From NCBI RefSeq assembly GCF_965641715.1, contig NZ_OZ282458.1: a stretch of DNA of 7,176 nucleotides; one strand, 5' to 3'. Positions within the stretch are counted from its first letter, which is position 1. The number at the start of each line of letters is the position of its first letter. A program made the translations under genes and the position numbers. The notes under the pieces were generated by a model, which saw only the letters and a program-made list of their open reading frames with translations, searched no databases and had not been told where the DNA came from. The DNA is from Escherichia coli. GTDB taxonomy: Bacteria > Pseudomonadota > Gammaproteobacteria > Enterobacterales > Enterobacteriaceae. Positions 2,276-7,176 of this stretch are shown one piece after another.

Positions 2276-2300
2276 ACAATATGCAGCCAGTCTTAGAGAC

Positions 2301-2329
2301 GAAAAGTCCGCCCAGAAGACTGACTTTTC
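2301..2329 (-). terminator. Hairpin 4 nt downstream of the 68-aa gene stop; possible terminator of the small-gene operon
   Basis: gaaaagtc (2301-2308) pairs with gacttttc (2322-2329), giving an 8-bp perfect stem and a 13-nt loop. The U-run lies inside the 3' arm rather than trailing it. A competing 7-bp stem exists (2288-2294 with 2317-2323). Confidence 0.3.
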
Positions 2330-2332
2330 AGA

Positions 2333-2539
2333 TCAACCTTCAGCATCTAACTTGTCTATCGCTTTTTTATTGCGCCGATAGGTAGCCATTAGTTCACCAT
2401 CGCCTGATTGTAAGTCACGACCTGCTTGCTCAGCATAGGTATCGTTTACAGTCTTAGCGCCTTTTTTATAGGCCTTTTTAACATCATCAAATCCGGCTTG
2501 GATGACTTCTTTCGGCTTTTCTTGAGGTAATTTAGCCAT
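2333..2539 (-). CDS. Hypothetical small protein, 68 aa, Lys/Ala/Asp-rich, predicted helical, no recognisable family
   Basis: The ATG at 2539 overlaps the stop of the upstream 127-aa gene by 8 nt (ATGGCTAA), which indicates translational coupling. No signal peptide, TM segment or HTH is obvious. Confidence 0.55.
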   Translation of the reverse strand: MAKLPQEKPKEVIQAGFDDVKKAYKKGAKTVNDTYAEQAGRDLQSGDGELMATYRRNKKAIDKLDAEG

Positions 2540-2915
2540 GCTGTGAATCCTCTATAAGGTTGATTATTTTTCCAACAGATAAGACGGCATCTTCTGTGTC
2601 GCTGATTTTATGATTTATCCAACCGTCCTCTATCTTTAATTTGTTCACTACTCCTAATGTAAAAACAACCTTTTTTTCAGGAAAGAAAATTGCAAAGGTT
2701 CTACTTTTCTCTTTCCAATCAGAGGGCGGCGTCGAACGGAACGCTACATTCCTCGATTTAAGTATCGCTTTGATTTTACTAATTAATTCTTTTTTTTGTT
2801 TATTGCTGAGATTTTTGACGAACCCTTTGCTGAGATTGTCTGTGTAATCATCAAAAGAAATATCAACTGGTTTGTTTTTTTGTTTTTTATCAGATAGATG
2901 AACAATGTTTGACAC
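2532..2915 (-). CDS. Hypothetical protein, 127 aa, Lys-rich N-terminal half, no recognisable family
   Basis: The GTG start at 2915 has AGGA 6 nt upstream (complement of about 2922-2925). The gene is very AT-rich, yet its ORF is the only long one in the interval. It is followed by the overlapping 68-aa gene. Confidence 0.55.
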   Translation of the reverse strand: MSNIVHLSDKKQKNKPVDISFDDYTDNLSKGFVKNLSNKQKKELISKIKAILKSRNVAFRSTPPSDWKEKSRTFAIFFPEKKVVFTLGVVNKLKIEDGWINHKISDTEDAVLSVGKIINLIEDSQHG

Positions 2916-3054
2916 TGGATATCCTGCTTTTTGATGAATGAATACTCAGAAGAGTAGCGGAACTGTCTTGTTAGTCACAGAGGTAGAGTATCAATTCTAC
3001 GATAGATGGGTTCGAAGATCCGGCTGAGACCGTTCAGTACGCGGTCGAGATGTT

Positions 3055-3059
3055 ATGTT
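3055..3059. repeat. Left copy of the 5-bp target-site duplication ATGTT
   Basis: Identical pentamers directly abut both outer ends of the element (3055-3059 and 3269-3273). A 5-bp duplication is the Tn3-family hallmark. Confidence 0.85.
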
Positions 3060-3097
3060 GGGGTCTGAAGTCCAATGGAACGAAAACGTACGTTAGT
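3060..3097 (+). repeat. Left 38-bp terminal inverted repeat
   Basis: ggggtctgaagtccaatggaacgaaaacgtacgttagt matches about 33/38 against my recollection of the gamma-delta (Tn1000) IR GGGGTTTGAGGGCCAATGGAACGAAAACGTACGTTAAG. It matches about 30/38 against the Tn3 IR. Confidence 0.85.
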
Positions 3098-3140
3098 GAA
3101 GTAACTGTATGATATATCAAGACATAATAGACATAGAAAA

Positions 3141-3164
3141 ACGCCATCAAAACGGTGTCTTTTT
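3141..3164 (+). terminator. Weak terminator-like hairpin plus T-run inside the miniature element
   Basis: acgcc (3141-3145) pairs with ggtgt (3154-3158) including one G-U pair, followed by cttttt. On the minus strand the same stem has an A-C mismatch followed by ttttt. The stem is only 5 bp, so it is marginal on either strand. Confidence 0.25.
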
Positions 3165-3230
3165 AATCGAAAATTGGCACTTAACGGACGGCATTGTCTA
3201 CTAATCGATTTTTAAGACGATAATTTTCCT

Positions 3231-3268
3231 CTTACCGTACATTTTCGTACGGTTGGCCCTCAAACCCC
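3231..3268 (-). repeat. Right 38-bp terminal inverted repeat
   Basis: The reverse complement ggggtttgagggccaaccgtacgaaaatgtacggtaag matches about 33/38 against the recalled gamma-delta IR and 28/38 against the left IR of this element. Confidence 0.85.
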
Positions 3269-3273
3269 ATGTT
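3269..3273. repeat. Right copy of the 5-bp target-site duplication ATGTT
   Basis: See the left copy at 3055-3059. Confidence 0.85.
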
Positions 3274-3519
3274 CAATGTAATGACCGTCGAAATTGCCTT
3301 TACGGGCATGAAGCAACCAGGAGCAATCATTGGCAAAGGTAACTAGAGTTCAATGCATGGTAATCATTTTTGAGCTTGTGATGCATAGAGTTGGTTGCTG
3401 TTCCATTGCGTCTCAAACTCCGTCAAGATGCTCGCCGTAAAAGCGAGCATGTCTAGTATGCCTGTTCCGCTACTGATTTTTGATGGGCGAATTCAGGGCT
3501 GGCTAGCCACCAAGAAAAA

Positions 3520-4581
3520 TTACTTTATTTCATCAAACAGGTGAGATGCAGTATAATAAACGCTTTGATCAAAGCGTCTCTCTGGGCTTAATTTATTTTG
3601 CCCGCCATTTAAAATTATTTCTTTTAATACTGATGGTGGAAGGATGGGTTTTGTTCTTCTTGGGTGATCCATATAAGCTTTTGTTATTTTTCCGTTTAGC
3701 GAGAACTCTTTATCACTTTGATATCCAAAGTTCATCTCAGTATAAATTCTATTGATGTTTGTCTTGTTTTTGCTCGCAATTTCATACACCATTCTGGCGA
3801 GTCTGGCTGATGATCTCATTAGTCTGCTGGCAGATGAATTGTTATATGAGGATCTATCAATAAAGGTTCGACACAAAGCAAAATCACTCCAGATGAATAT
3901 GTCAAAGGCATTTTGATCTAATATTGGGCTCTTGCCTTTTGTTTTCCATAATGGTTGCATTAAAAAAGGTTTCTGGTAATCAAGAAAATTTTCTTGGAAA
4001 GTGTTTAGGCAATTTAATATATTTTCTTTCTTTGAAAGAACTTCAGTTTCATTCCCCCAGTGCTGTATGCTTTCGCATGTGGATTCAAATATTTTTCTTA
4101 TTTCATGGAATTTATCGCTGCAAGAGTGCATTATGCCAAGGGCACAATAAGAAGTGCTTGCAGGTCTTATTACAATCTCTGAACTCCATTCGCTCTCGTT
4201 TTCTTTATATGTCGTGCTATCTGGGAGTACGGTTAATTTTATTTCTAGTGCTTTTAAAAAACTATTGTTTCCTTTTATAACTAGATCTATTCCTTTTATG
4301 TCATCATAAGCATACTGTTGGTATGGTTCATATTTTTTCTCAAATTGAAATTCAAGATCACTATTTTTTAATGTTGTGTTAAAAACGAAGTCAAAAGATA
4401 CTTCTTTGGCATGCACTTTTAAATCCTTATCTAAATAAAGATAAATCGGATTCATTTTGTTGTCTCTCATATAACATGCTAGAGAGGTGGGAAAAGAACT
4501 GTTAAATTGGTTCTTTCCCCACAGATCGCTCTCTTTCCTGTTGGTGTTTTTTAAACCATAAAGAGATTCTATTTTGCTCAC
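3520..4581 (-). CDS. Candidate Type II restriction endonuclease, 353 aa, PD-(D/E)xK fold; specificity unknown
   Basis: It is divergent from, and 87 bp away from, a C5 methyltransferase gene. A candidate catalytic motif is GID(99)LV..x13..ALE(113)IK(115)LT. The GTG start at 4581 follows a strong SD AGGAG (complement of 4588-4592) with a 6-nt spacer. Base composition is AT-rich, as for the methylase. Confidence 0.7.
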   Translation of the reverse strand: MSKIESLYGLKNTNRKESDLWGKNQFNSSFPTSLACYMRDNKMNPIYLYLDKDLKVHAKEVSFDFVFNTTLKNSDLEFQFEKKYEPYQQYAYDDIKGIDLVIKGNNSFLKALEIKLTVLPDSTTYKENESEWSSEIVIRPASTSYCALGIMHSCSDKFHEIRKIFESTCESIQHWGNETEVLSKKENILNCLNTFQENFLDYQKPFLMQPLWKTKGKSPILDQNAFDIFIWSDFALCRTFIDRSSYNNSSASRLMRSSARLARMVYEIASKNKTNINRIYTEMNFGYQSDKEFSLNGKITKAYMDHPRRTKPILPPSVLKEIILNGGQNKLSPERRFDQSVYYTASHLFDEIK

Positions 4582-4592
4582 TTTTTGCTCCT

Positions 4593-4612
4593 GACGTCAA
4601 TTTATTGACGTC
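4593..4612. promoter_or_regulatory. Perfect palindromic operator candidate GACGTCAAT-tt-ATTGACGTC in the R/M divergent intergenic region
   Basis: It has 9-bp perfect inverted arms (4593-4601 and 4604-4612) with a 2-bp centre. It overlaps the -35 of the methylase promoter and abuts the endonuclease SD. It contains two GACGTC hexamers. Confidence 0.6.
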
Positions 4613-4633
4613 TATGGTGTGTTTCTATATCAT
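4605..4633 (+). promoter_or_regulatory. Sigma70-type promoter candidate for the methyltransferase gene
   Basis: -35 TTGACG (4605-4610, 5/6), a 17-bp spacer, then -10 TATCAT (4628-4633, 5/6). The predicted start is near 4640, about 29 nt before ATG 4669. Confidence 0.5.
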
Positions 4634-4646
4634 GATGTGGAGTGAT

Positions 4647-4675
4647 ATGATAATGAGTTTTTTATGTTATGAGAA
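4647..4675 (-). promoter_or_regulatory. Weaker sigma70-type promoter candidate for the endonuclease gene, facing the methylase promoter
   Basis: On the minus strand: -35 TTCTCA (complement of 4670-4675, 4/6), a 17-bp spacer, then -10 TATCAT (complement of 4647-4652, 5/6). The predicted start near 4640 would place the palindrome in the 5' leader of the R mRNA. Confidence 0.3.
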
Positions 4676-5826
4676 TAATTGATCTTTTTAGTGGGTGTGG
4701 GGGGTTATCCCTAGGCTTTTTGAAGGGGGGGTTTGATGTTGTAGGTGCTTATGATTTCTGGGATCCTGCTATTGAATGTTACAGAGATAATTTTAGCCAT
4801 CCGATAAAAAAACTAGATTTGAGCAATGTTGATGATGTGGTGAGGGAGCTTAAAGATATAGACTTCGATATGATTATTGGAGGGCCTCCTTGCCAAGACT
4901 TCAGTCATGCAGGTTTAAGAATTGAAGGTGCTAGAGCTAACTTAACTCGCTCATTTTCAGAAATTATAAAAAGAATAAAGCCAAAGTGGTTTGTGATGGA
5001 AAATGTAGATCGGGCATTAAGAAGTGGTGCCTATTTAGAAGCTCGAGGAATCTTTAAAGAATCAGGGTATGGGTTAACAGAAATTGTTTTGGATGCCAGT
5101 AAGTGTGGTGTTCCGCAAAAAAGAAAAAGATTATTTGTAATTGGAAAGCTTGACGTGAGGGATGGTTTTATCCTTAACGAAGTGATGTGCGGGATATCGA
5201 AAGATAGTATGACAGTTAGAAATTATCTTGGTGATTCATTGGGGATTGAGTATTATTACAGACATCCGAGAAATTATAACAGAAGGGCTATTTTCTCTAT
5301 TGATGAACCTGCGCCAACAGTAAGAGGGGTTAATAGACCGATACCTGATGGATATTTAGGGCATGCAGGCGATCCTGTCAGTATTTCTGAGAATGTAAGG
5401 CCATTAACAACCTTTGAAAGAGCAAGATTGCAAACATTTCCTGAAGACTTTAAATTTAAAGGTGCAAAAACAAATTTGGAGCAAATGATAGGTAATGCTG
5501 TTCCGGTTGAGTTAGCAAAATATGTTGCGGTGACAATCATGGAGTATGAAAAAAAACAAGTAAAAGGTATTTATGATAAAGAAGGCTTTAGGGCGTGGTT
5601 GCTGAATGAAAAGAAACTAACAAAAAGAACCTCTAGCGATATTATATCTAGATGTTGCAGAGGTGTTTCATTTTTTGATTCAGAGGGGGTGGATTTTTAT
5701 AACTGTGAAATAGATGAAATTATTATGAAACTGGAAAGGCTTGAATCGTTTGTCAGGCTTGGGGTTAGCCTGAAGTCTCAGTTAAGAAGGGCTTTTAAAT
5801 TATATTACGAATATTGTCGAAGGTAA
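4669..5826 (+). CDS. DNA (cytosine-5)-methyltransferase, 385 aa, Dcm family, with a C-terminal extension of about 95 aa
   Basis: All canonical motifs are present in order: I DLFSGCGG (aa 5-12), IV GGPPCQDFS (catalytic Cys74), VI ENV (111-113), VIII QKRKR (150-154), IX RPLTTFERARLQTFPEDF, X GNAVPV (275-280). The variable/target-recognition region is short (about aa 160-245). Residues from about 292 to 385 lie beyond motif X. Confidence 0.9.
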   Translation: MRIIDLFSGCGGLSLGFLKGGFDVVGAYDFWDPAIECYRDNFSHPIKKLDLSNVDDVVRELKDIDFDMIIGGPPCQDFSHAGLRIEGARANLTRSFSEIIKRIKPKWFVMENVDRALRSGAYLEARGIFKESGYGLTEIVLDASKCGVPQKRKRLFVIGKLDVRDGFILNEVMCGISKDSMTVRNYLGDSLGIEYYYRHPRNYNRRAIFSIDEPAPTVRGVNRPIPDGYLGHAGDPVSISENVRPLTTFERARLQTFPEDFKFKGAKTNLEQMIGNAVPVELAKYVAVTIMEYEKKQVKGIYDKEGFRAWLLNEKKLTKRTSSDIISRCCRGVSFFDSEGVDFYNCEIDEIIMKLERLESFVRLGVSLKSQLRRAFKLYYEYCRR

Positions 5827-5886
5827 TAAATACGAATTTATGTCTCTCAGGGGAGGGGGAGGGGATAAAAAGATCAAAGGATCCTC

Positions 5887-5915
5887 TTGTGATCCTTTTT
5901 TTCTGCGCGTAATCT
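5887..5915 (+). promoter_or_regulatory. RNAII (replication primer) promoter
   Basis: -35 TTGTGA (5887-5892), a 17-bp spacer, then -10 TAATCT (5910-5915). It is collinear with the pMB1/pBR322 promoter ttgagatcctttttttctgcgcgtaatct. Confidence 0.8.
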
Positions 5916-5926
5916 GCTGCCTGTAA

Positions 5927-6034
5927 ACAAAAAAACCACCGCTACCAACGGTGGTTTGTTTGCCGGAATCTAGAGCTACCAACTCTTTCTTCCGAAGGTA
6001 ACTGGCTTGGTGGAGCACAGATACCAAATACTGT
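5927..6034 (-). ncRNA. RNAI: RNAI antisense copy-number regulator (about 108 nt)
   Basis: The reverse complement reads acagtatttggtatctgtgctccaccaagccagttaccttcggaagaaagagttggtagctctagattccggcaaacaaaccaccgttggtagcggtggtttttttgt. It has a three-stem-loop architecture collinear with pMB1 RNAI. Confidence 0.85.
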
Positions 6035-6040
6035 CCTTCT

Positions 6041-6070
6041 AGTGTAGCCGCAGTTAGGCCACCACTTCAA
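6041..6070 (-). promoter_or_regulatory. RNAI promoter
   Basis: The minus strand reads ttgaagtggtggcctaactgcggctacact. The -35 TTGAAG is the complement of 6065-6070 and the -10 TACACT is the complement of 6041-6046. It differs at one base from the recalled pBR322 sequence. Confidence 0.75.
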
Positions 6071-6459
6071 GAACTCTTAATATCTCAATCCACCTTGTCC
6101 AGTTACCAGTGGCTGCTGCCAGTGGCGCTTTGTCGTGTCTTACCGGGTTGGACTCAAGACGATAGTTACCGGATAAGGCGCAGCGGTCGGGCTGAACGGG
6201 GGGTTCGTGCACACAGCCCAGCTTGGAGCGAACGACCTACACCGAACTGAGATACCAACAGCGTGAGCTATGAGAAAGCGCCACGCTTCCCGAAGGGAGA
6301 AAGGCGGACAGGTATCCGGTAAGCGGCAGGGTCGGAACAGGAGAGCGCACGAGGGAGCTTCCAGGGGGAAACGCCTGGTATCTTTAAGTCCTGTCGGGTT
6401 TCGCCACCTCTGACTTGAGCGTCGATTTTTGTGATGCTCGTCAGGGGGGCGGAGCCTAT

Positions 6460-6485
6460 GGAAAAACGCCAGCGGCGTGGCCTTC
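6460..6485 (+). other. oriV: oriV: RNA-to-DNA transition region of ColE1-type replication (approximate)
   Basis: ggaaaaacgccagcggcgtggcc corresponds to pBR322 GGAAAAACGCCAGCAACGCGGCC, where leading-strand synthesis starts. Confidence 0.6.
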
Positions 6486-6689
6486 TCTGGGTTCTTGTTT
6501 TTTGCTCACATGTTTCTTTTGGTGTTATCCCCTGATTCTGTGGATAACCGCATTACCGTCTTTGAGTGAGCTGATACCGCTCGCCGCAGCCGAACGACCG
6601 AGCGTAGCGAGTCAGTGAGCGAGGAAGCGGAAGAGCGTCGGAAGTTGCATTTTCTCCTTACACATCTGTGCGGCATTTCACACCCGGCA

Positions 6690-6780
6690 TGGCGCACTTT
6701 TCATACAATCTGCACTGATGCCGCATGGTTAAGCCAGTATACACTCCGCTATCGCTACGTGACTGGGTCAGGGCTTCGCC
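6690..6780 (-). other. oriT: bom/oriT region with predicted nic on the minus strand between 6734 and 6733 (..gtatactgg|cttaac..)
   Basis: ccgcatggttaagccagtatacactccgctatcgctacgtgactgggtca is collinear with the pBR322 bom region (..CCGCATAGTTAAGCCAGTATACACTCCGCTATCGCTACGTGACTGGGTCA..). The ColE1 nick is recalled as CTGG/CTTA next to GTATAC. Confidence 0.7.
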
Positions 6781-6882
6781 CCGACACCCGCAAGGTCAAC
6801 GGCCTGACGCGCCCTGACGGGCTTGTCTGCTCCCGGCATCCGCTCACAGACAAGCTGTGACCGTCTCCGGGAGCTGTATGTG

Positions 6883-7074
6883 TCAGAGGTTTTCACCGTC
6901 ATCCCCGAAGCGTGCGAGGCAGCTGCGGTAAAGCTCATCGGCGTGGTCGTGAAGCGATTCACAGATGTCTGCCTGTTCATCCGCGTCCAGTTCGTTGAGC
7001 TTTTCCAGCAGCGTTAATGTCTGGCTTCTGATAAAGCGCGCCATGTTAAGGGCTGTTTTTTCCTGTTTAGTCAC
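6883..7074 (-). CDS. rop: Rop/Rom, RNAI-RNAII kissing-complex stabiliser, 63 aa
   Basis: From GTG 7074 the product is MTKQEKTALNMARFIRSQTLTLLEKLNELDADEQADICESLHDHADELYRSCLARFGDDGENL, identical as far as I recall to pBR322 Rop. The 95-aa ORF-track version (to 7170) is an upstream in-frame extension. Confidence 0.9.
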   Translation of the reverse strand: MTKQEKTALNMARFIRSQTLTLLEKLNELDADEQADICESLHDHADELYRSCLARFGDDGENL

Positions 7075-7137
7075 TGATGCCTCCGTGTAAGGGGGATTTC
7101 TGTTCATGGGGTAATGATACCGATGAAACGCGAGAGG

Positions 7138-7176
7138 ATGCTCACGATACGGGTTACTGATGATGAACATGCACGG
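7138..7176 (+). CDS. mobC: MobC/MbeC N-terminal 13 codons (MLTIRVTDDEHAR), continuing at base 1 across the circular join; 107 aa in total
   Basis: The frame is contiguous with frame 1 of the window start. An upstream in-frame stop lies at 7075-7077. In-frame ATGs occur at 7114, 7123 and 7138. ATG 7138 gives the MLT..RVT.DEH..LLERC N-terminus recalled for MbeC, a ribbon-helix-helix beta-strand region. Confidence 0.6.
   Translation, partial: MLTIRVTDDEHAR

What the first reader, a model, noticed from the sequence alone, without database searches (positions are those of the whole stretch)
4582..4682. R-M control region without a C protein: perfect palindrome with two GACGTC sites overlapping the methylase -35 and abutting the endonuclease SD
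The 87-bp divergent intergenic region holds GACGTCAAT-tt-ATTGACGTC (4593-4612). Its right arm overlaps a near-consensus promoter for the methylase (TTGACG, 17 bp, TATCAT). Its left arm touches the endonuclease SD (AGGAG), so in the R mRNA leader it would fold into an 8-bp hairpin with a 4-nt loop directly 5' of the SD. No controller-protein ORF is present anywhere in the module. By eye, the only two GACGTC hexamers in the whole 7.2 kb are these two. The degenerate GRCGYC pattern adds only one more site, at 2728-2733. There are two testable ideas. (a) The methylase itself is the repressor, as established for the C5 methylases M.SsoII, M.EcoRII and M.MspI. (b) The palindrome contains the system's own recognition sequence, so methylation state sets the R:M ratio, as described for CfrBI. 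The two candidate promoters also face each other, with start sites both near 4640, which would give mutual interference.
Basis: partly seen in the sequence, partly recalled or inferred. Interest (0 to 1): 0.65.

Follow-up and report, generated by a model that had tools for sequence, protein, structure and literature searches.

The report
Methylation-site operator with fused methylase controller
The palindrome between the restriction and methylase genes of this small E. coli plasmid is a deeply conserved operator built from two copies of the system's own cutting site. It always travels with a previously unnamed 80-residue DNA-binding-type domain, here fused to the end of the methylase, so the system most likely senses its own methylation before it lets the nuclease be made.

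Summary
In detail: GACGTCAAT-TT-ATTGACGTC lies at 4593-4612, these are the only two GACGTC sites in the window, and the palindrome overlaps a TTGACG-17-TATCAT methylase promoter.

The nuclease belongs to the HindVP/BsaHI/HgiDI family, which recognises GRCGYC, so both arms are the system's own sites. Among 80 homologous loci from many phyla, 40 carry the same frame, GRCGTCAA-N4-TTGACGYC, and it always sits at the methylase promoter. GRCGYC density is 14.9 per kb in the divergent intergenic regions and 0.30 per kb elsewhere.

The "no controller" claim needs correcting. Methylase residues 296-385 form a separate domain, called X here. X accompanies the operator in 39 of 39 loci with enough sequence, either fused or as a small ORF after the methylase. 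No operator-less locus has an intact copy.

X matches no Pfam, NCBIfam, PHROGs or PADLOC model. Its predicted fold is the DNA-binding core-binding domain of tyrosine recombinases. It is homologous to the N-terminus of M1.LlaJI, an experimentally shown autorepressor whose promoter has the same operator.

The most likely mechanism is methylation-coupled autorepression of the methylase promoter, which frees an overlapping, opposed nuclease promoter. Verdict: a new variant of the LlaJI and CfrBI kinds of control.

The parts
4593..4612 (.). Operator: GACGTCAA-TTTA-TTGACGTC, two GRCGYC sites (4593-4598 and 4607-4612) 14 bp apart centre to centre
   Evidence: Sequence. The same frame, GRCGTCAA-N4-TTGACGYC, occurs in 40 homologous loci plus the window. 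An unbiased search for the core finds 39 of 40 hits flanked by GR..YC.
4605..4633 (+). Methylase promoter PM: -35 TTGACG (4605-4610, the right operator arm), 17-bp spacer, -10 TATCAT (4628-4633); predicted start near 4640
   Evidence: 10 of 12. In 41 aligned operators the -10 lies 17 bp from TTGACG in 31 cases, and 16 of them are exact TATAAT.
4647..4675 (-). Candidate nuclease promoter PR: -35 TTCTCA (4675-4670), 17-bp spacer, -10 TATCAT (4652-4647); predicted start near 4640, opposed to PM
   Evidence: 9 of 12. TATCAT is conserved in the Providencia homologue L002. 23 of 35 divergent loci have a TG-extended -10 pointing toward the nuclease gene, between the operator and the methylase start.
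4579..4592 (-). Nuclease ribosome-binding site AGGAG (4592-4588) and GTG start codon (4581-4579), directly next to the left operator arm
   Evidence: The RefSeq CDS has the same start.
3520..4581 (-). Restriction endonuclease gene (353 aa), HindVP/BsaHI/HgiDI family, predicted specificity GRCGYC
   Evidence: Pfam RE_HindVP, E = 7e-102. Motifs WGKNQF (aa 21), EIK (aa 113) and SPERRFD (aa 332) are present (PMC2413257). There are 3220 homologues.
4669..5553 (+). C5 cytosine methyltransferase catalytic part of the methylase (aa 1-295)
   Evidence: Pfam DNA_methylase covers aa 1-290, E = 7e-63. NCBIfam dcm. Motifs FSGCGG, PPCQ, ENV and GNAVP are present.
5554..5823 (+). Domain X (methylase aa 296-385): candidate operator-binding controller domain fused to the methylase C-terminus

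Best explanation
**What it is.** The 20-bp palindrome at 4593-4612 is the operator of the methylase promoter in a Type IIP restriction-modification system that recognises GRCGYC. It carries two signals at once:
- two substrate sites for the system's own C5 methylase;
- an inverted repeat of the half-site TTGACG, for an approximately 80-residue DNA-binding-type domain (X) fused to the methylase C-terminus (aa 296-385).

**Proposed sequence of events.**
1. On entry into a naive cell the operator is unmethylated. The near-consensus PM fires and excludes or collides with RNA polymerase at the weaker, opposed PR. Both start sites lie near 4640, so methylase is made first. The promoter geometry is shown; the interference is inferred.
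2. The methylase modifies the central C of GRCGYC on the chromosome and at both operator arms. This is inferred from the enzyme family.
3. Two X domains bind the operator across -47 to -28 and shut PM. By homology with M1.LlaJI, binding is probably triggered by methylation of the CpG in CGTCAA/TTGACG. m5C in the -35 hexamer may also weaken sigma-70 contact, as in CfrBI. All of this is inferred.
4. With PM silenced, PR gains access and the nuclease is made. This is inferred by analogy with CfrBI and Ecl18kI. The sign of the effect on the nuclease is the least certain step, because PR transcripts must read through the occupied operator.
For: **Own sites.**
- The nuclease matches RE_HindVP, a family whose characterised members act on GRCGYC with the central C methylated (PMC2413257; PMC2615612; PMC8565308).

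**Conservation.**
- 35 of 39 divergent loci carry exactly two GRCGYC sites in the intergenic region: 70 sites in 4698 nt, against 68 in 228,347 nt elsewhere.
- The logo is invariant at positions not imposed by the search (T5, A8, T13, T14 and A16 in 41 of 41; A7 in 40 of 41). The outer R/Y positions vary 30:11.
- An unbiased core search gives GR..YC flanks in 39 of 40 hits. Among chance matches to the core in metagenomes, only 9 of 120 have G..C flanks.

**The operator follows the methylase gene.**
- It lies upstream of the methylase gene in convergent loci and in tandem loci with an intergenic gap, and is absent from tight operons.
- The promoter TTGACG-17-TATAAT is conserved.

**Domain X.**
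- X co-occurs with the operator, fused or as a separate ORF.
- Operator and X change state together on the methylase tree, with a minimum of 7 changes.
- Loci that lost X show operators decayed by CpG to TpG/CpA changes, the m5C deamination signature.
- X has a recombinase core-binding fold.
- X is homologous to the N-terminus of M1.LlaJI, and the pNP40 promoter reads GGCGTCAA-attc-TTGACGCC, 17 bp, TAGAAT.
- M1.LlaJI is listed among the six C5 methylases with experimentally shown autoregulation.

**Opposed promoters:**
Against: - Nothing here is experimental for this plasmid. Specificity, methylated base, transcription starts and X-DNA binding are all inferred.
- Which part of M1.LlaJI binds its promoter is, to my knowledge, not mapped. 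The methylation-triggered binding in LlaJI is recalled from the abstract of O'Driscoll et al. 2005, which is not in the held library.
- Most operator-bearing methylases form one broad clade, so part of the co-occurrence is shared ancestry.
- In X-led operons of other systems the half-sites are direct repeats (TTGACGTTGACG) that are not GRCGYC sites. X may therefore simply recognise TTGACG whatever the methylation state.
- A protein bound at 4593-4612 lies at +28 to +47 of the PR transcript and could block nuclease transcription rather than promote it.
Confidence: 0.68

Rival explanations
1. A pure CfrBI-type epigenetic switch. Methylation of the two GRCGYC sites, one of them in the -35 hexamer, directly lowers sigma-70 binding at PM and so favours PR. 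No protein acts as a repressor, and domain X has another role, for example general DNA affinity or dimerisation of the methylase.
For: - The own site lies in the -35 hexamer of PM, and the two promoters are opposed and mutually exclusive. This is the CfrBI geometry described.
- Complete recognition sites are conserved.
Against: - This model does not explain why a second site at a fixed 14-bp distance, and the symmetric AA/TT flanks, are invariant.
- It does not explain why X and the operator are gained and lost together.
- In L031 and L036 the same operator brackets the -10 and start site instead of the -35.
- The homologous LlaJI promoter is reported to be controlled by M1.LlaJI binding.
Confidence: 0.12
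2. A classical autorepressor of the SsoII/Ecl18kI type. X binds the operator regardless of methylation, or only when it is unmethylated. The overlap with GRCGYC sites then follows from X's half-site TTGACG resembling the recognition sequence and the -35 consensus. Alternatively, the overlap lets the catalytic domain compete with X for the same DNA.
For: - X-led operons of other restriction-modification systems use TTGACG half-sites that are not GRCGYC sites.
- TTGACG is also a near-consensus -35 hexamer.
- The regulatory logic of M.SsoII and M.Ecl18kI needs no methylation.
Against: - The positions beyond TTGACG (Y, C) complete GRCGYC in 39 of 40 operators, and their variation matches the R/Y degeneracy.
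- The half-site always contains the methylatable CpG.
- The LlaJI precedent, recalled from memory, has methylation-dependent binding.
Confidence: 0.14
3. The palindrome acts mainly as RNA. An 8-bp hairpin in the nuclease leader, directly 5' of the ribosome-binding site, would set the translation, stability or termination of the nuclease mRNA.
For: - The predicted hairpin has -11.2 kcal/mol and z = -2.99.
- It abuts AGGAG.
- In several Firmicutes loci a T-rich run follows the stem.
- A similar untested idea exists for the CfrBI inverted repeats.
Against: - In six loci where the nuclease gene is not adjacent (L007, L009, L013, L031, L032, L036) the complete palindrome is kept upstream of the methylase gene.
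- Arm combinations that break pairing, GACGTC with GACGCC, occur in 4 of 41 operators.
- The stem cannot be separated from the two recognition sites, so there is no independent covariation.
Confidence: 0.05

Closest known systems
LlaJI system of Lactococcus lactis plasmid pNP40 (M1.LlaJI autorepression; O'Driscoll et al. 2005, Mol Microbiol 57:1532)
   Same: - It has the same operator core and frame, CGTCAA-N4-TTGACG, made of two inverted own recognition sites.
- The methylase-proximal arm is the -35 hexamer and the -10 follows after 17 bp.
- The methylase carries a homologous X domain (37% identity, E = 7e-14; hhalign 99.5%).
- M1.LlaJI is experimentally listed as an autoregulating C5 methylase.
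   Different: - LlaJI recognises the asymmetric site GACGC, needs two methylases, and uses McrBC-like R1/R2 subunits. All its genes form one operon, so repression lowers nuclease as well (PMC1459862).
- Here there is one methylase for the palindromic site GRCGYC and a PD-(D/E)xK homodimer-type nuclease.
- Here X is C-terminal rather than N-terminal.
- Here the nuclease gene is divergent, with its own opposed promoter.
CfrBI system (promoter methylation switch)
   Same: - The two genes are divergent with overlapping, mutually exclusive promoters.
- The system's own recognition site lies in the -35 hexamer of the methylase promoter.
- There is no separate C gene.
   Different: - CfrBI has one site, uses m4C, and has no known DNA-binding regulatory domain.
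- Here there are two sites in a fixed palindrome, the predicted modification is m5C, and a fused controller-like domain is present.
SsoII/Ecl18kI-type regulatory C5 methyltransferases
   Same: - The methylase is fused to a DNA-binding domain that represses its own promoter.
- Repression relieves transcriptional interference on a divergent nuclease promoter.
   Different: - There the domain is an N-terminal helix-turn-helix, and the 15-bp regulatory site differs from the methylation site.
- Here the domain is C-terminal with a recombinase core-binding fold, no helix-turn-helix family matches, and the operator contains the methylation sites.
Controller (C) proteins with C-boxes
   Same: A small DNA-binding regulator that is often a separate ORF in the module and autoregulates through a palindromic operator. 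About half of the X domains are stand-alone ORFs of 77-119 aa.
   Different: - C proteins are Xre-type helix-turn-helix proteins, usually co-transcribed with and activating the nuclease gene.
- X has a different fold, sits with the methylase gene, and its operator embeds recognition sites.
- One X-led system (L087) carries a classical C protein in addition.
BsaHI / HgiDI / HgiGI / HindV restriction-modification enzymes (GRCGYC)
   Same: The nuclease and the methylase catalytic domain are homologous to these enzymes, and the conserved nuclease motifs are present.
   Different: BsaHI is a tight methylase-then-nuclease tandem with a 323-aa methylase. Tight tandem relatives in my sample lack both operator and X. 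I found no description of regulation for this enzyme family in the held literature.
Core-binding (SAM-like) N-terminal domain of tyrosine recombinases, and recombinase-derived repressors (SPbeta MrpR, phi3T SroF)
   Same: - These domains bind inverted half-sites in the major groove.
   Different: - There is no detectable sequence similarity: the PDB profile search is empty and there is no Pfam Phage_int_SAM match.
- There is no catalytic domain.
- The domain is used for transcription control of restriction-modification genes.

Membership tests
HindVP/BsaHI/HgiDI Type IIP restriction-modification family (GRCGYC) | Nuclease matches the RE_HindVP profile over its full length | tested here: met
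   E = 6.8e-102, aa 21-344 against profile positions 1-328 of 332
HindVP/BsaHI/HgiDI Type IIP restriction-modification family (GRCGYC) | WGKNQF, catalytic ExK and SPERRFD motifs, which inactive members such as HindVP partly lack | tested here: met
   WGKNQF at aa 21, EIK at aa 113, SPERRFD at aa 332. Criteria from PMC2413257.
HindVP/BsaHI/HgiDI Type IIP restriction-modification family (GRCGYC) | Adjacent C5 methyltransferase homologous to M.BsaHI/M.HgiDI | tested here: met
   Pfam DNA_methylase, E = 7e-63. 49-73% identity to the methylases next to HindVP-family nucleases in 73 loci.
HindVP/BsaHI/HgiDI Type IIP restriction-modification family (GRCGYC) | Cleaves and methylates GRCGYC, with the central C as m5C | not testable with these tools
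   Inferred from the family. Indirect support: complete GRCGYC sites are conserved in operators, and decayed operators show CpG to TpG/CpA changes.
LlaJI-type epigenetic/repressor control | Methylase carries the domain found at the N-terminus of M1.LlaJI | tested here: met
   The HMM built from HindVP-family X domains hits M1.LlaJI aa 4-75 with E = 1.9e-26. BLASTP 37% identity, E = 7e-14. hhalign 99.5%. The position differs: C-terminal here.
LlaJI-type epigenetic/repressor control | Two own recognition sites in inverted orientation inside the methylase promoter | tested here: met
   Window GACGTCAA-TTTA-TTGACGTC compared with pNP40 GGCGTCAA-ATTC-TTGACGCC. Both are followed by 17 bp and a -10 element.
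LlaJI-type epigenetic/repressor control | Methylation of the operator triggers high-affinity methylase binding and repression | not testable with these tools
   Needs gel-shift and reporter assays. The LlaJI primary paper is not held, so the mechanism is recalled from its abstract.
LlaJI-type epigenetic/repressor control | Asymmetric site, two methylases and McrBC-like R1/R2 subunits in one operon | tested here: not met
   The window has one methylase and a HindVP-family nuclease gene, divergently transcribed. It therefore works like LlaJI control but is not a LlaJI system.
CfrBI-type promoter-methylation switch | Own site in the -35 hexamer of the methylase promoter, with overlapping divergent promoters | tested here: met
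   GACGTC at 4607-4612 lies inside and next to TTGACG at 4605-4610. PM and PR are opposed, with start sites near 4640. The promoters are predicted, not mapped.
CfrBI-type promoter-methylation switch | Regulation by DNA modification alone, without a DNA-binding regulator | tested here: inconclusive
   A candidate regulator domain (X) is present and tightly linked to the operator, but its binding is untested.
SsoII/Ecl18kI-type regulatory methyltransferase | N-terminal helix-turn-helix regulatory domain | tested here: not met
   The methylase starts directly with motif I (FSGCGG at aa 7). No helix-turn-helix family matches. The extra domain is C-terminal.
SsoII/Ecl18kI-type regulatory methyltransferase | Regulatory site distinct from the methylation site | tested here: not met
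   The operator arms are themselves GRCGYC sites.
C-protein (Xre-type helix-turn-helix) controlled restriction-modification system | Separate small helix-turn-helix C gene with a C-box upstream | tested here: not met
   No such ORF lies in the cargo region 2276-5867. ORFs 2333-2539 and 2532-2915 have no significant match in Pfam (only sub-threshold hits for the 127-aa ORF), PHROGs or PADLOC.

The most novel reading that the evidence does not exclude
Domain X is an undescribed, widespread family of restriction-modification controllers. It has 748 clusters at 50% identity and is absent from Pfam, NCBIfam, PHROGs and PADLOC.

X would be a stand-alone derivative of the tyrosine-recombinase core-binding domain that reads the methylation state of a CpG inside its TTGACG half-site. 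That would make it a bacterial 5-methylcytosine-dependent transcription repressor.

It moves as a module: N-terminal fusion, C-terminal fusion or separate ORF. It is found with at least four architectures of C5-methylase systems, giving each a direct check that its own methylase works before the methylase promoter is shut and, in divergent systems, the nuclease promoter is released.
Probability: 0.4. Interest if true: 0.8.

Novelty: new variant of a known kind. Interest (0 to 1): 0.66.

Why it matters
A 2025 review calls control of restriction-modification genes by methylation of their own promoter "apparently rarely used", with CfrBI, AhdI and LlaDII as the cited cases. Only six C5 methylases have experimentally shown regulatory function.

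The evidence here points to three changes in that picture:
- One such scheme, so far known from the single LlaJI case, is an ancient and phylogenetically broad module.
- It can be recognised from sequence alone: a CGTCAA-N4-TTGACG operator together with an approximately 80-residue domain.
- It links the LlaJI, CfrBI and SsoII modes of control in one system.

The finding names a concrete candidate for a prokaryotic 5mC-sensitive DNA-binding domain. It also offers a tractable test system: a 7-kb E. coli plasmid, commercially available isoschizomers (BsaHI, AatII), and a 90-residue domain.

In practice it improves annotation of "DNA cytosine methyltransferase, partial" fragments and of hypothetical 80-aa ORFs next to methylase genes. 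It also explains how this plasmid-borne system, found in 39 of 5426 complete E. coli genomes, can establish itself without a classical C protein.

Tried and rejected
- **Site counts in the window alone.** They are not significant, so the case rests on comparison with other loci.
- **The nuclease-proximal arm as a -35 for the nuclease gene.** The scan finds TTGACG-18-CAAAAT, but that -10 overlaps the GTG start and the conserved N-terminus. Rejected.
- **A word-index homology search with X alone.** It returned only 3 near-identical proteins. A profile of X domains taken from the loci was needed.
- **Family libraries.** Pfam, NCBIfam, PHROGs and PADLOC scans, and a PDB sequence search, with X: no family.
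- **Metagenome scan for GCGTCAANNNNTTGACGC.** It was meant to test whether LlaJI-type operators leave the outermost position free. Of 123 sites, 120 were chance matches with no methylase or X nearby, and 3 were close pNP40 relatives. The test was uninformative and serves only as a background control.
- **The afdb50 fold library** was unavailable.
- **Primary papers not held.** The LlaJI 2004 and 2005 papers and the HgiDI 1991 paper.
- **Recognition sequences of the X-led two-methylase operons (L087, L092, L094).** They could not be assigned, so I could not test whether their operators also embed own sites.
- **Search for longer inverted repeats in the cargo region.** None with arms of 14 bp or more.
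Full report
**1. What the window is**

The 7176 bases are essentially a whole small ColE1-type mobilisable E. coli plasmid.
- They are 98.6-98.7% identical over 100% of their length to the best-matching small E. coli plasmids, for example the 7178-bp CP061256.1 and the 7166-bp NZ_AP025744.1.
- RNAI lies at 5927-6032.
- The backbone (1-2275 and 5868-7176) is shared with a plasmid that carries EcoRI in the same slot.
- The cargo is 2276-5867. It holds the nuclease gene 3520-4581 on the minus strand, the 87-bp intergenic region 4582-4668, and the methylase gene 4669-5826 on the plus strand.
- The restriction-modification module occurs in 39 of 5426 complete E. coli genomes. It is always on plasmids and always at least 99% identical.

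**2. Checking the observation**

Every factual element of the finding is in the sequence.
- The palindrome GACGTCAAT-TT-ATTGACGTC lies at 4593-4612.
- These are the only two GACGTC sites, and there is one further GRCGYC site at 2728.
- The methylase promoter (PM below) is TTGACG-17-TATCAT at 4605-4633, scoring 10 of 12. An opposed promoter for the nuclease gene (PR below), TTCTCA-17-TATCAT, lies at 4675-4647 and scores 9 of 12.
- AGGAG sits directly beside the left arm.
- The nuclease leader forms an 8-bp hairpin with a 4-nt loop (-11.2 kcal/mol, z = -2.99).

The site counts alone are not significant. Perfect inverted repeats with arms of at least 9 bp are rare: 2 observed against 0.13 expected. 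The second one, at 3560-3577, is coding sequence.

**3. The arms are the system's own recognition sites**

- The nuclease matches Pfam RE_HindVP over its full length (E = 7e-102).
- It has the WGKNQF, ExK (EIK) and SPERRFD motifs. Neely and Roberts showed SPERRFD to be required for BsaHI activity and noted that ExK is missing from inactive members such as HindVP.
- BsaHI, HgiDI and HgiGI cut GRCGYC.
- M.BsaHI methylates the central C.
- M.HindV protects against BsaHI and gives a GRCGYC motif in RIMS-seq.
- GACGTC is a GRCGYC site, so both arms are predicted substrates. The methylated C would be position 5 of the -35 hexamer TTGACG, with its partner on the other strand at position 6.

**4. Comparative test**

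A scan of one genome per species returned 80 loci whose nucleases are 42-81% identical to the window's.

*Divergent loci.*
- 39 loci have the window's divergent arrangement.
- In 35 of these the short intergenic region holds exactly two GRCGYC sites in one fixed frame. That is 70 sites in 4698 nt, against 68 in the remaining 228,347 nt, a 50-fold enrichment.

*The aligned operators.*
- The 41 operators, window included, read G-R-C-G-T-C-A-A-N4-T-T-G-A-C-G-Y-C.
- Positions that my search did not fix are nevertheless invariant: T5, A8, T13, T14 and A16 in 41 of 41, and A7 in 40 of 41.
- The outer degenerate positions vary as A/G 30:11 and T/C 30:11. These are exactly the letters that GRCGYC allows.
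- A search for the core CGTCAA-N3-5-TTGACG alone finds 40 sites, and 39 are flanked by GR..YC. Chance matches to the core in metagenomes show G..C flanks in only 9 of 120 cases.

*Host range.* The hosts span Proteobacteria, Bacteroidota, Spirochaetes, Firmicutes, Lentisphaerota, Verrucomicrobiota and others.

**5. The operator belongs to the methylase promoter, not to the nuclease gene**

- The arm nearest the methylase gene is a -35 hexamer. A -10 element follows after 17 bp in 31 of 41 cases, and it is exactly TATAAT in 16.
- In convergent loci (L007, L009, L036) and spaced tandem loci (L013, L031, L032) the complete palindrome lies upstream of the methylase gene, far from the nuclease start.
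- The 30 tandem operons without an operator, nearly all with the two genes only a few bases apart, do not have it.
- This argues against the nuclease-leader hairpin as the reason the palindrome exists.
- In divergent loci a second promoter points at the nuclease gene from near the methylase start codon. 23 of 35 loci have a TG-extended -10 there, so the two promoters face each other.
- In the window the two -10 elements are only 13 bp apart (4628-4633 and 4647-4652). Both start sites fall near 4640, so one RNA polymerase excludes the other.

**6. The missing controller is fused to the methylase**

*Discovery.*
- Pfam covers methylase residues 1-290 only.
- The remaining 90 or so residues, called domain X here, were found by tblastn in 26 loci.
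- An HMM built from those hits found X in 39 of the 39 operator-bearing loci with enough sequence; L016 and L061 are cut off by contig ends.
- The only operator-less locus with any trace is L023, which has a 48-aa remnant next to a half-decayed operator.

*Arrangement.*
- In about half of the loci X is fused to the methylase C-terminus, giving proteins of 378-415 aa.
- In the other half the methylase is about 300 aa, and X is a separate ORF of 81-119 aa directly after or overlapping the methylase stop codon.

*Linked gain and loss.*
- On a neighbour-joining tree of the methylase catalytic domain, operator and X change state together, with a minimum of 7 changes.
- Loci that lost X keep recognisable operator relics whose differences are CpG to TpG or CpA: L005 GATGTCAGTATTTTGATGTC, L048 AACATCAAATATTTGATGCC, L023 GCCATCAA....
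- That is the decay expected of 5-methylcytosine once selection is lifted.

**7. What X is**

- X matches nothing in Pfam, NCBIfam, PHROGs or PADLOC, and nothing in PDB by sequence.
- A profile search of 1.84 billion cluster representatives finds 748 clusters with E of at most 1e-3. The 150 best listed are almost all stand-alone proteins of 75-90 aa.
- AlphaFold2 with a 48-sequence alignment gives a confident helical bundle (pLDDT 90.6, pTM 0.81).
- The recombinase-like repressors phi3T SroF and SPbeta MrpR also match.
- Such domains bind inverted half-sites through the major groove, which fits a dimer on CGTCAA-N4-TTGACG.
- The best-conserved X residues are polar or basic, in the motifs D-x-x-S-R-x-x-R and S-Q-x-K/R-R/K-A.

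**8. The link to a characterised system**

Stand-alone X proteins also head operons of other restriction-modification systems, in the order X, methylase 1, methylase 2.
- Their upstream regions again contain TTGACG half-sites at the promoter:
  - L087 and L094 have direct repeats, TTGACGTTGACG.
  - L092 has CGTCAACGTCAA.
  - L095 has the inverted pair aGCGTCAA-ttta-TTGACGCt.
- The L095 methylase is 55% identical to a methylase of Lactococcus plasmid pNP40. That locus is the LlaJI system, which recognises GACGC (PMC1459862).
- M1.LlaJI (466 aa) carries X at its N-terminus: HMM E = 1.9e-26, 37% identity to the window's X with E = 7e-14, and hhalign probability 99.5%.
- The LlaJI promoter reads GGCGTCAA-attc-TTGACGCC, then 17 bp, then TAGAAT. 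That is the window's operator frame, with two inverted LlaJI sites.
- M1.LlaJI is one of only six C5 methylases with experimentally confirmed regulatory function.

From my recollection of the abstract of O'Driscoll et al. 2005, methylation of two promoter cytosines by M2.LlaJI triggers specific high-affinity binding of M1.LlaJI, which represses the operon. That paper is not in the held library.

M2.LlaJI acts on the GCGTC strand. The 2006 paper knocked out each promoter site by replacing the internal C of GCGTC. That C is the CpG cytosine in CGTCAA, which is also a target of a GR(m5C)GYC methylase.

**9. Most likely mechanism in the window**

- *Shown by sequence and comparison:*
  - a strong PM whose -35 hexamer is an operator arm;
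  - an opposed, weaker PR;
  - two own sites in the operator;
  - a DNA-binding-type domain on the methylase that is evolutionarily tied to the operator.
- *Inferred:*
  - After entry, the unmethylated PM dominates and methylase accumulates.
  - The methylase modifies the genome and the operator.
  - X domains then occupy the operator across -47 to -28 and shut PM. This is probably methylation-dependent, as in LlaJI, and m5C in the -35 hexamer may add a CfrBI-like effect.
  - PR then gains access and the nuclease appears. This matches the relief of interference shown for Ecl18kI and CfrBI.
- *Least certain:* the sign of the effect on the nuclease, because PR transcripts must cross the occupied operator at +28 to +47.

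**10. Rivals**

| Rival | Probability | Main objection |
|---|---|---|
| Pure methylation switch without protein binding | 0.12 | Does not explain the second site, the fixed spacing, the symmetric AA/TT flanks, or the link with X |
| Methylation-independent autorepressor | 0.14 | Must explain why the operator always completes GRCGYC |
| RNA hairpin | 0.05 | Fails in loci where the nuclease gene is not adjacent |

For the second rival, X-led operons with TTGACG repeats that are not GRCGYC sites show that X's half-site is TTGACG in its own right.

**11. Novelty**

- The logic is known from LlaJI, CfrBI and SsoII/Ecl18kI.
- What I did not find in the domain libraries or the held literature:
  - the existence of domain X as a family, or its recombinase core-binding fold;
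  - its modular use, N-terminal, C-terminal or free;
  - the presence of this control in the GRCGYC (HindVP/HgiDI/BsaHI) family across phyla;
  - its combination with opposed promoters.
- For this window the verdict is therefore a new variant of a known kind.
- If X proves to be a 5mC-dependent repressor, that would be of general interest.

Noticed in passing
L087:3940-4000, L094 (upstream of 3501), L092/L093 (upstream of 3501/771): Stand-alone X proteins head operons of other restriction-modification systems in the order X, methylase 1, methylase 2 (two C5 methylases). Their promoters carry direct repeats of the same half-site. L087 and L094 have TTGACGTTGACG, with the first repeat as the -35, followed by 17 bp and TATACT or TATATT. 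L092 has CGTCAACGTCAA directly upstream of TATAAT. L087 also has a classical helix-turn-helix C protein and a 275-aa candidate nuclease in convergent orientation. The specificities of these systems are unknown.
   Followed up: partly
L097 (pNP40, NC_010901.1): 3234-3460 and promoter around 3150-3233: M1.LlaJI has the X domain as its first 75 residues. The LlaJI promoter GGCGTCAA-attc-TTGACGCC, 17 bp, TAGAAT has the same frame as the window's operator. The N-terminal domain may be the part responsible for the published promoter binding of M1.LlaJI.
   Followed up: yes
L005, L048, L023 (upstream of their methylase genes): Loci that lack domain X retain operator relics in which the CpG of each arm has become TpG or CpA, for example GATGTCAGTATTTTGATGTC. 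This pattern is expected from deamination of 5-methylcytosine at the central C of GRCGYC.
   Followed up: partly
L031 and L036 (upstream of their methylase genes): In two proteobacterial loci the same operator is placed differently. A TTGACA -35 lies upstream, and the -10 (TATATT) is the operator's own centre, AATATATT, so the two sites bracket the -10 and the start site instead of forming the -35. In L031 the palindrome extends to 38 bp.
   Followed up: no
window 2276-5867 compared with 1-2275 and 5868-7176: The plasmid backbone (mob genes, ori, rop) is 99-100% identical to that of a 5.6-kb E. coli plasmid carrying EcoRI in the same slot. Restriction-modification cargo is therefore exchanged on one ColE1-type backbone.
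   Followed up: partly
window 2333-2539 (-), 2532-2915 (-), 2916-3519: Two overlapping hypothetical ORFs (68 and 127 aa) and a 600-nt stretch without an ORF of at least 50 aa lie downstream of the nuclease gene inside the cargo. They have no significant match in Pfam (the 127-aa ORF has only sub-threshold hits), PHROGs or PADLOC. The only other GRCGYC site in the plasmid (2728-2733) lies inside the 127-aa ORF.
   Followed up: partly
window 3560-3577: The only other perfect palindrome with 9-bp arms is ACGCTTTGATCAAAGCGT, with no spacer and a GATC at its centre. It lies inside the nuclease gene and encodes RRFDQS of the essential SPERRFD motif. It is probably a coding coincidence.
   Followed up: partly
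L082-L086: 1495-1920: In a gut-metagenome relative, a Vsr (very-short-patch repair) gene sits next to the nuclease gene, as is often seen with C5 methylases. The window's cargo has no vsr gene.
   Followed up: no
window 4669-5826 (methylase) and its hosts: GR(m5C)GYC methylation creates purine-m5C dinucleotides, which are the target of E. coli McrBC according to established knowledge. The plasmid should therefore establish only in hosts lacking active McrBC. The 39 carrier genomes, including O111:H8 and O26:H11 strains, could be checked for mcrBC status.
   Followed up: no
P0121, P0122 (E. coli, NCBI 'DNA cytosine methyltransferase, partial'): Some E. coli plasmid records annotate 91-135-aa 'partial' methylases that consist mostly of domain X. 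In at least one 6715-bp plasmid no methylase gene is listed. Some copies may therefore carry a disrupted methylase gene.
   Followed up: no
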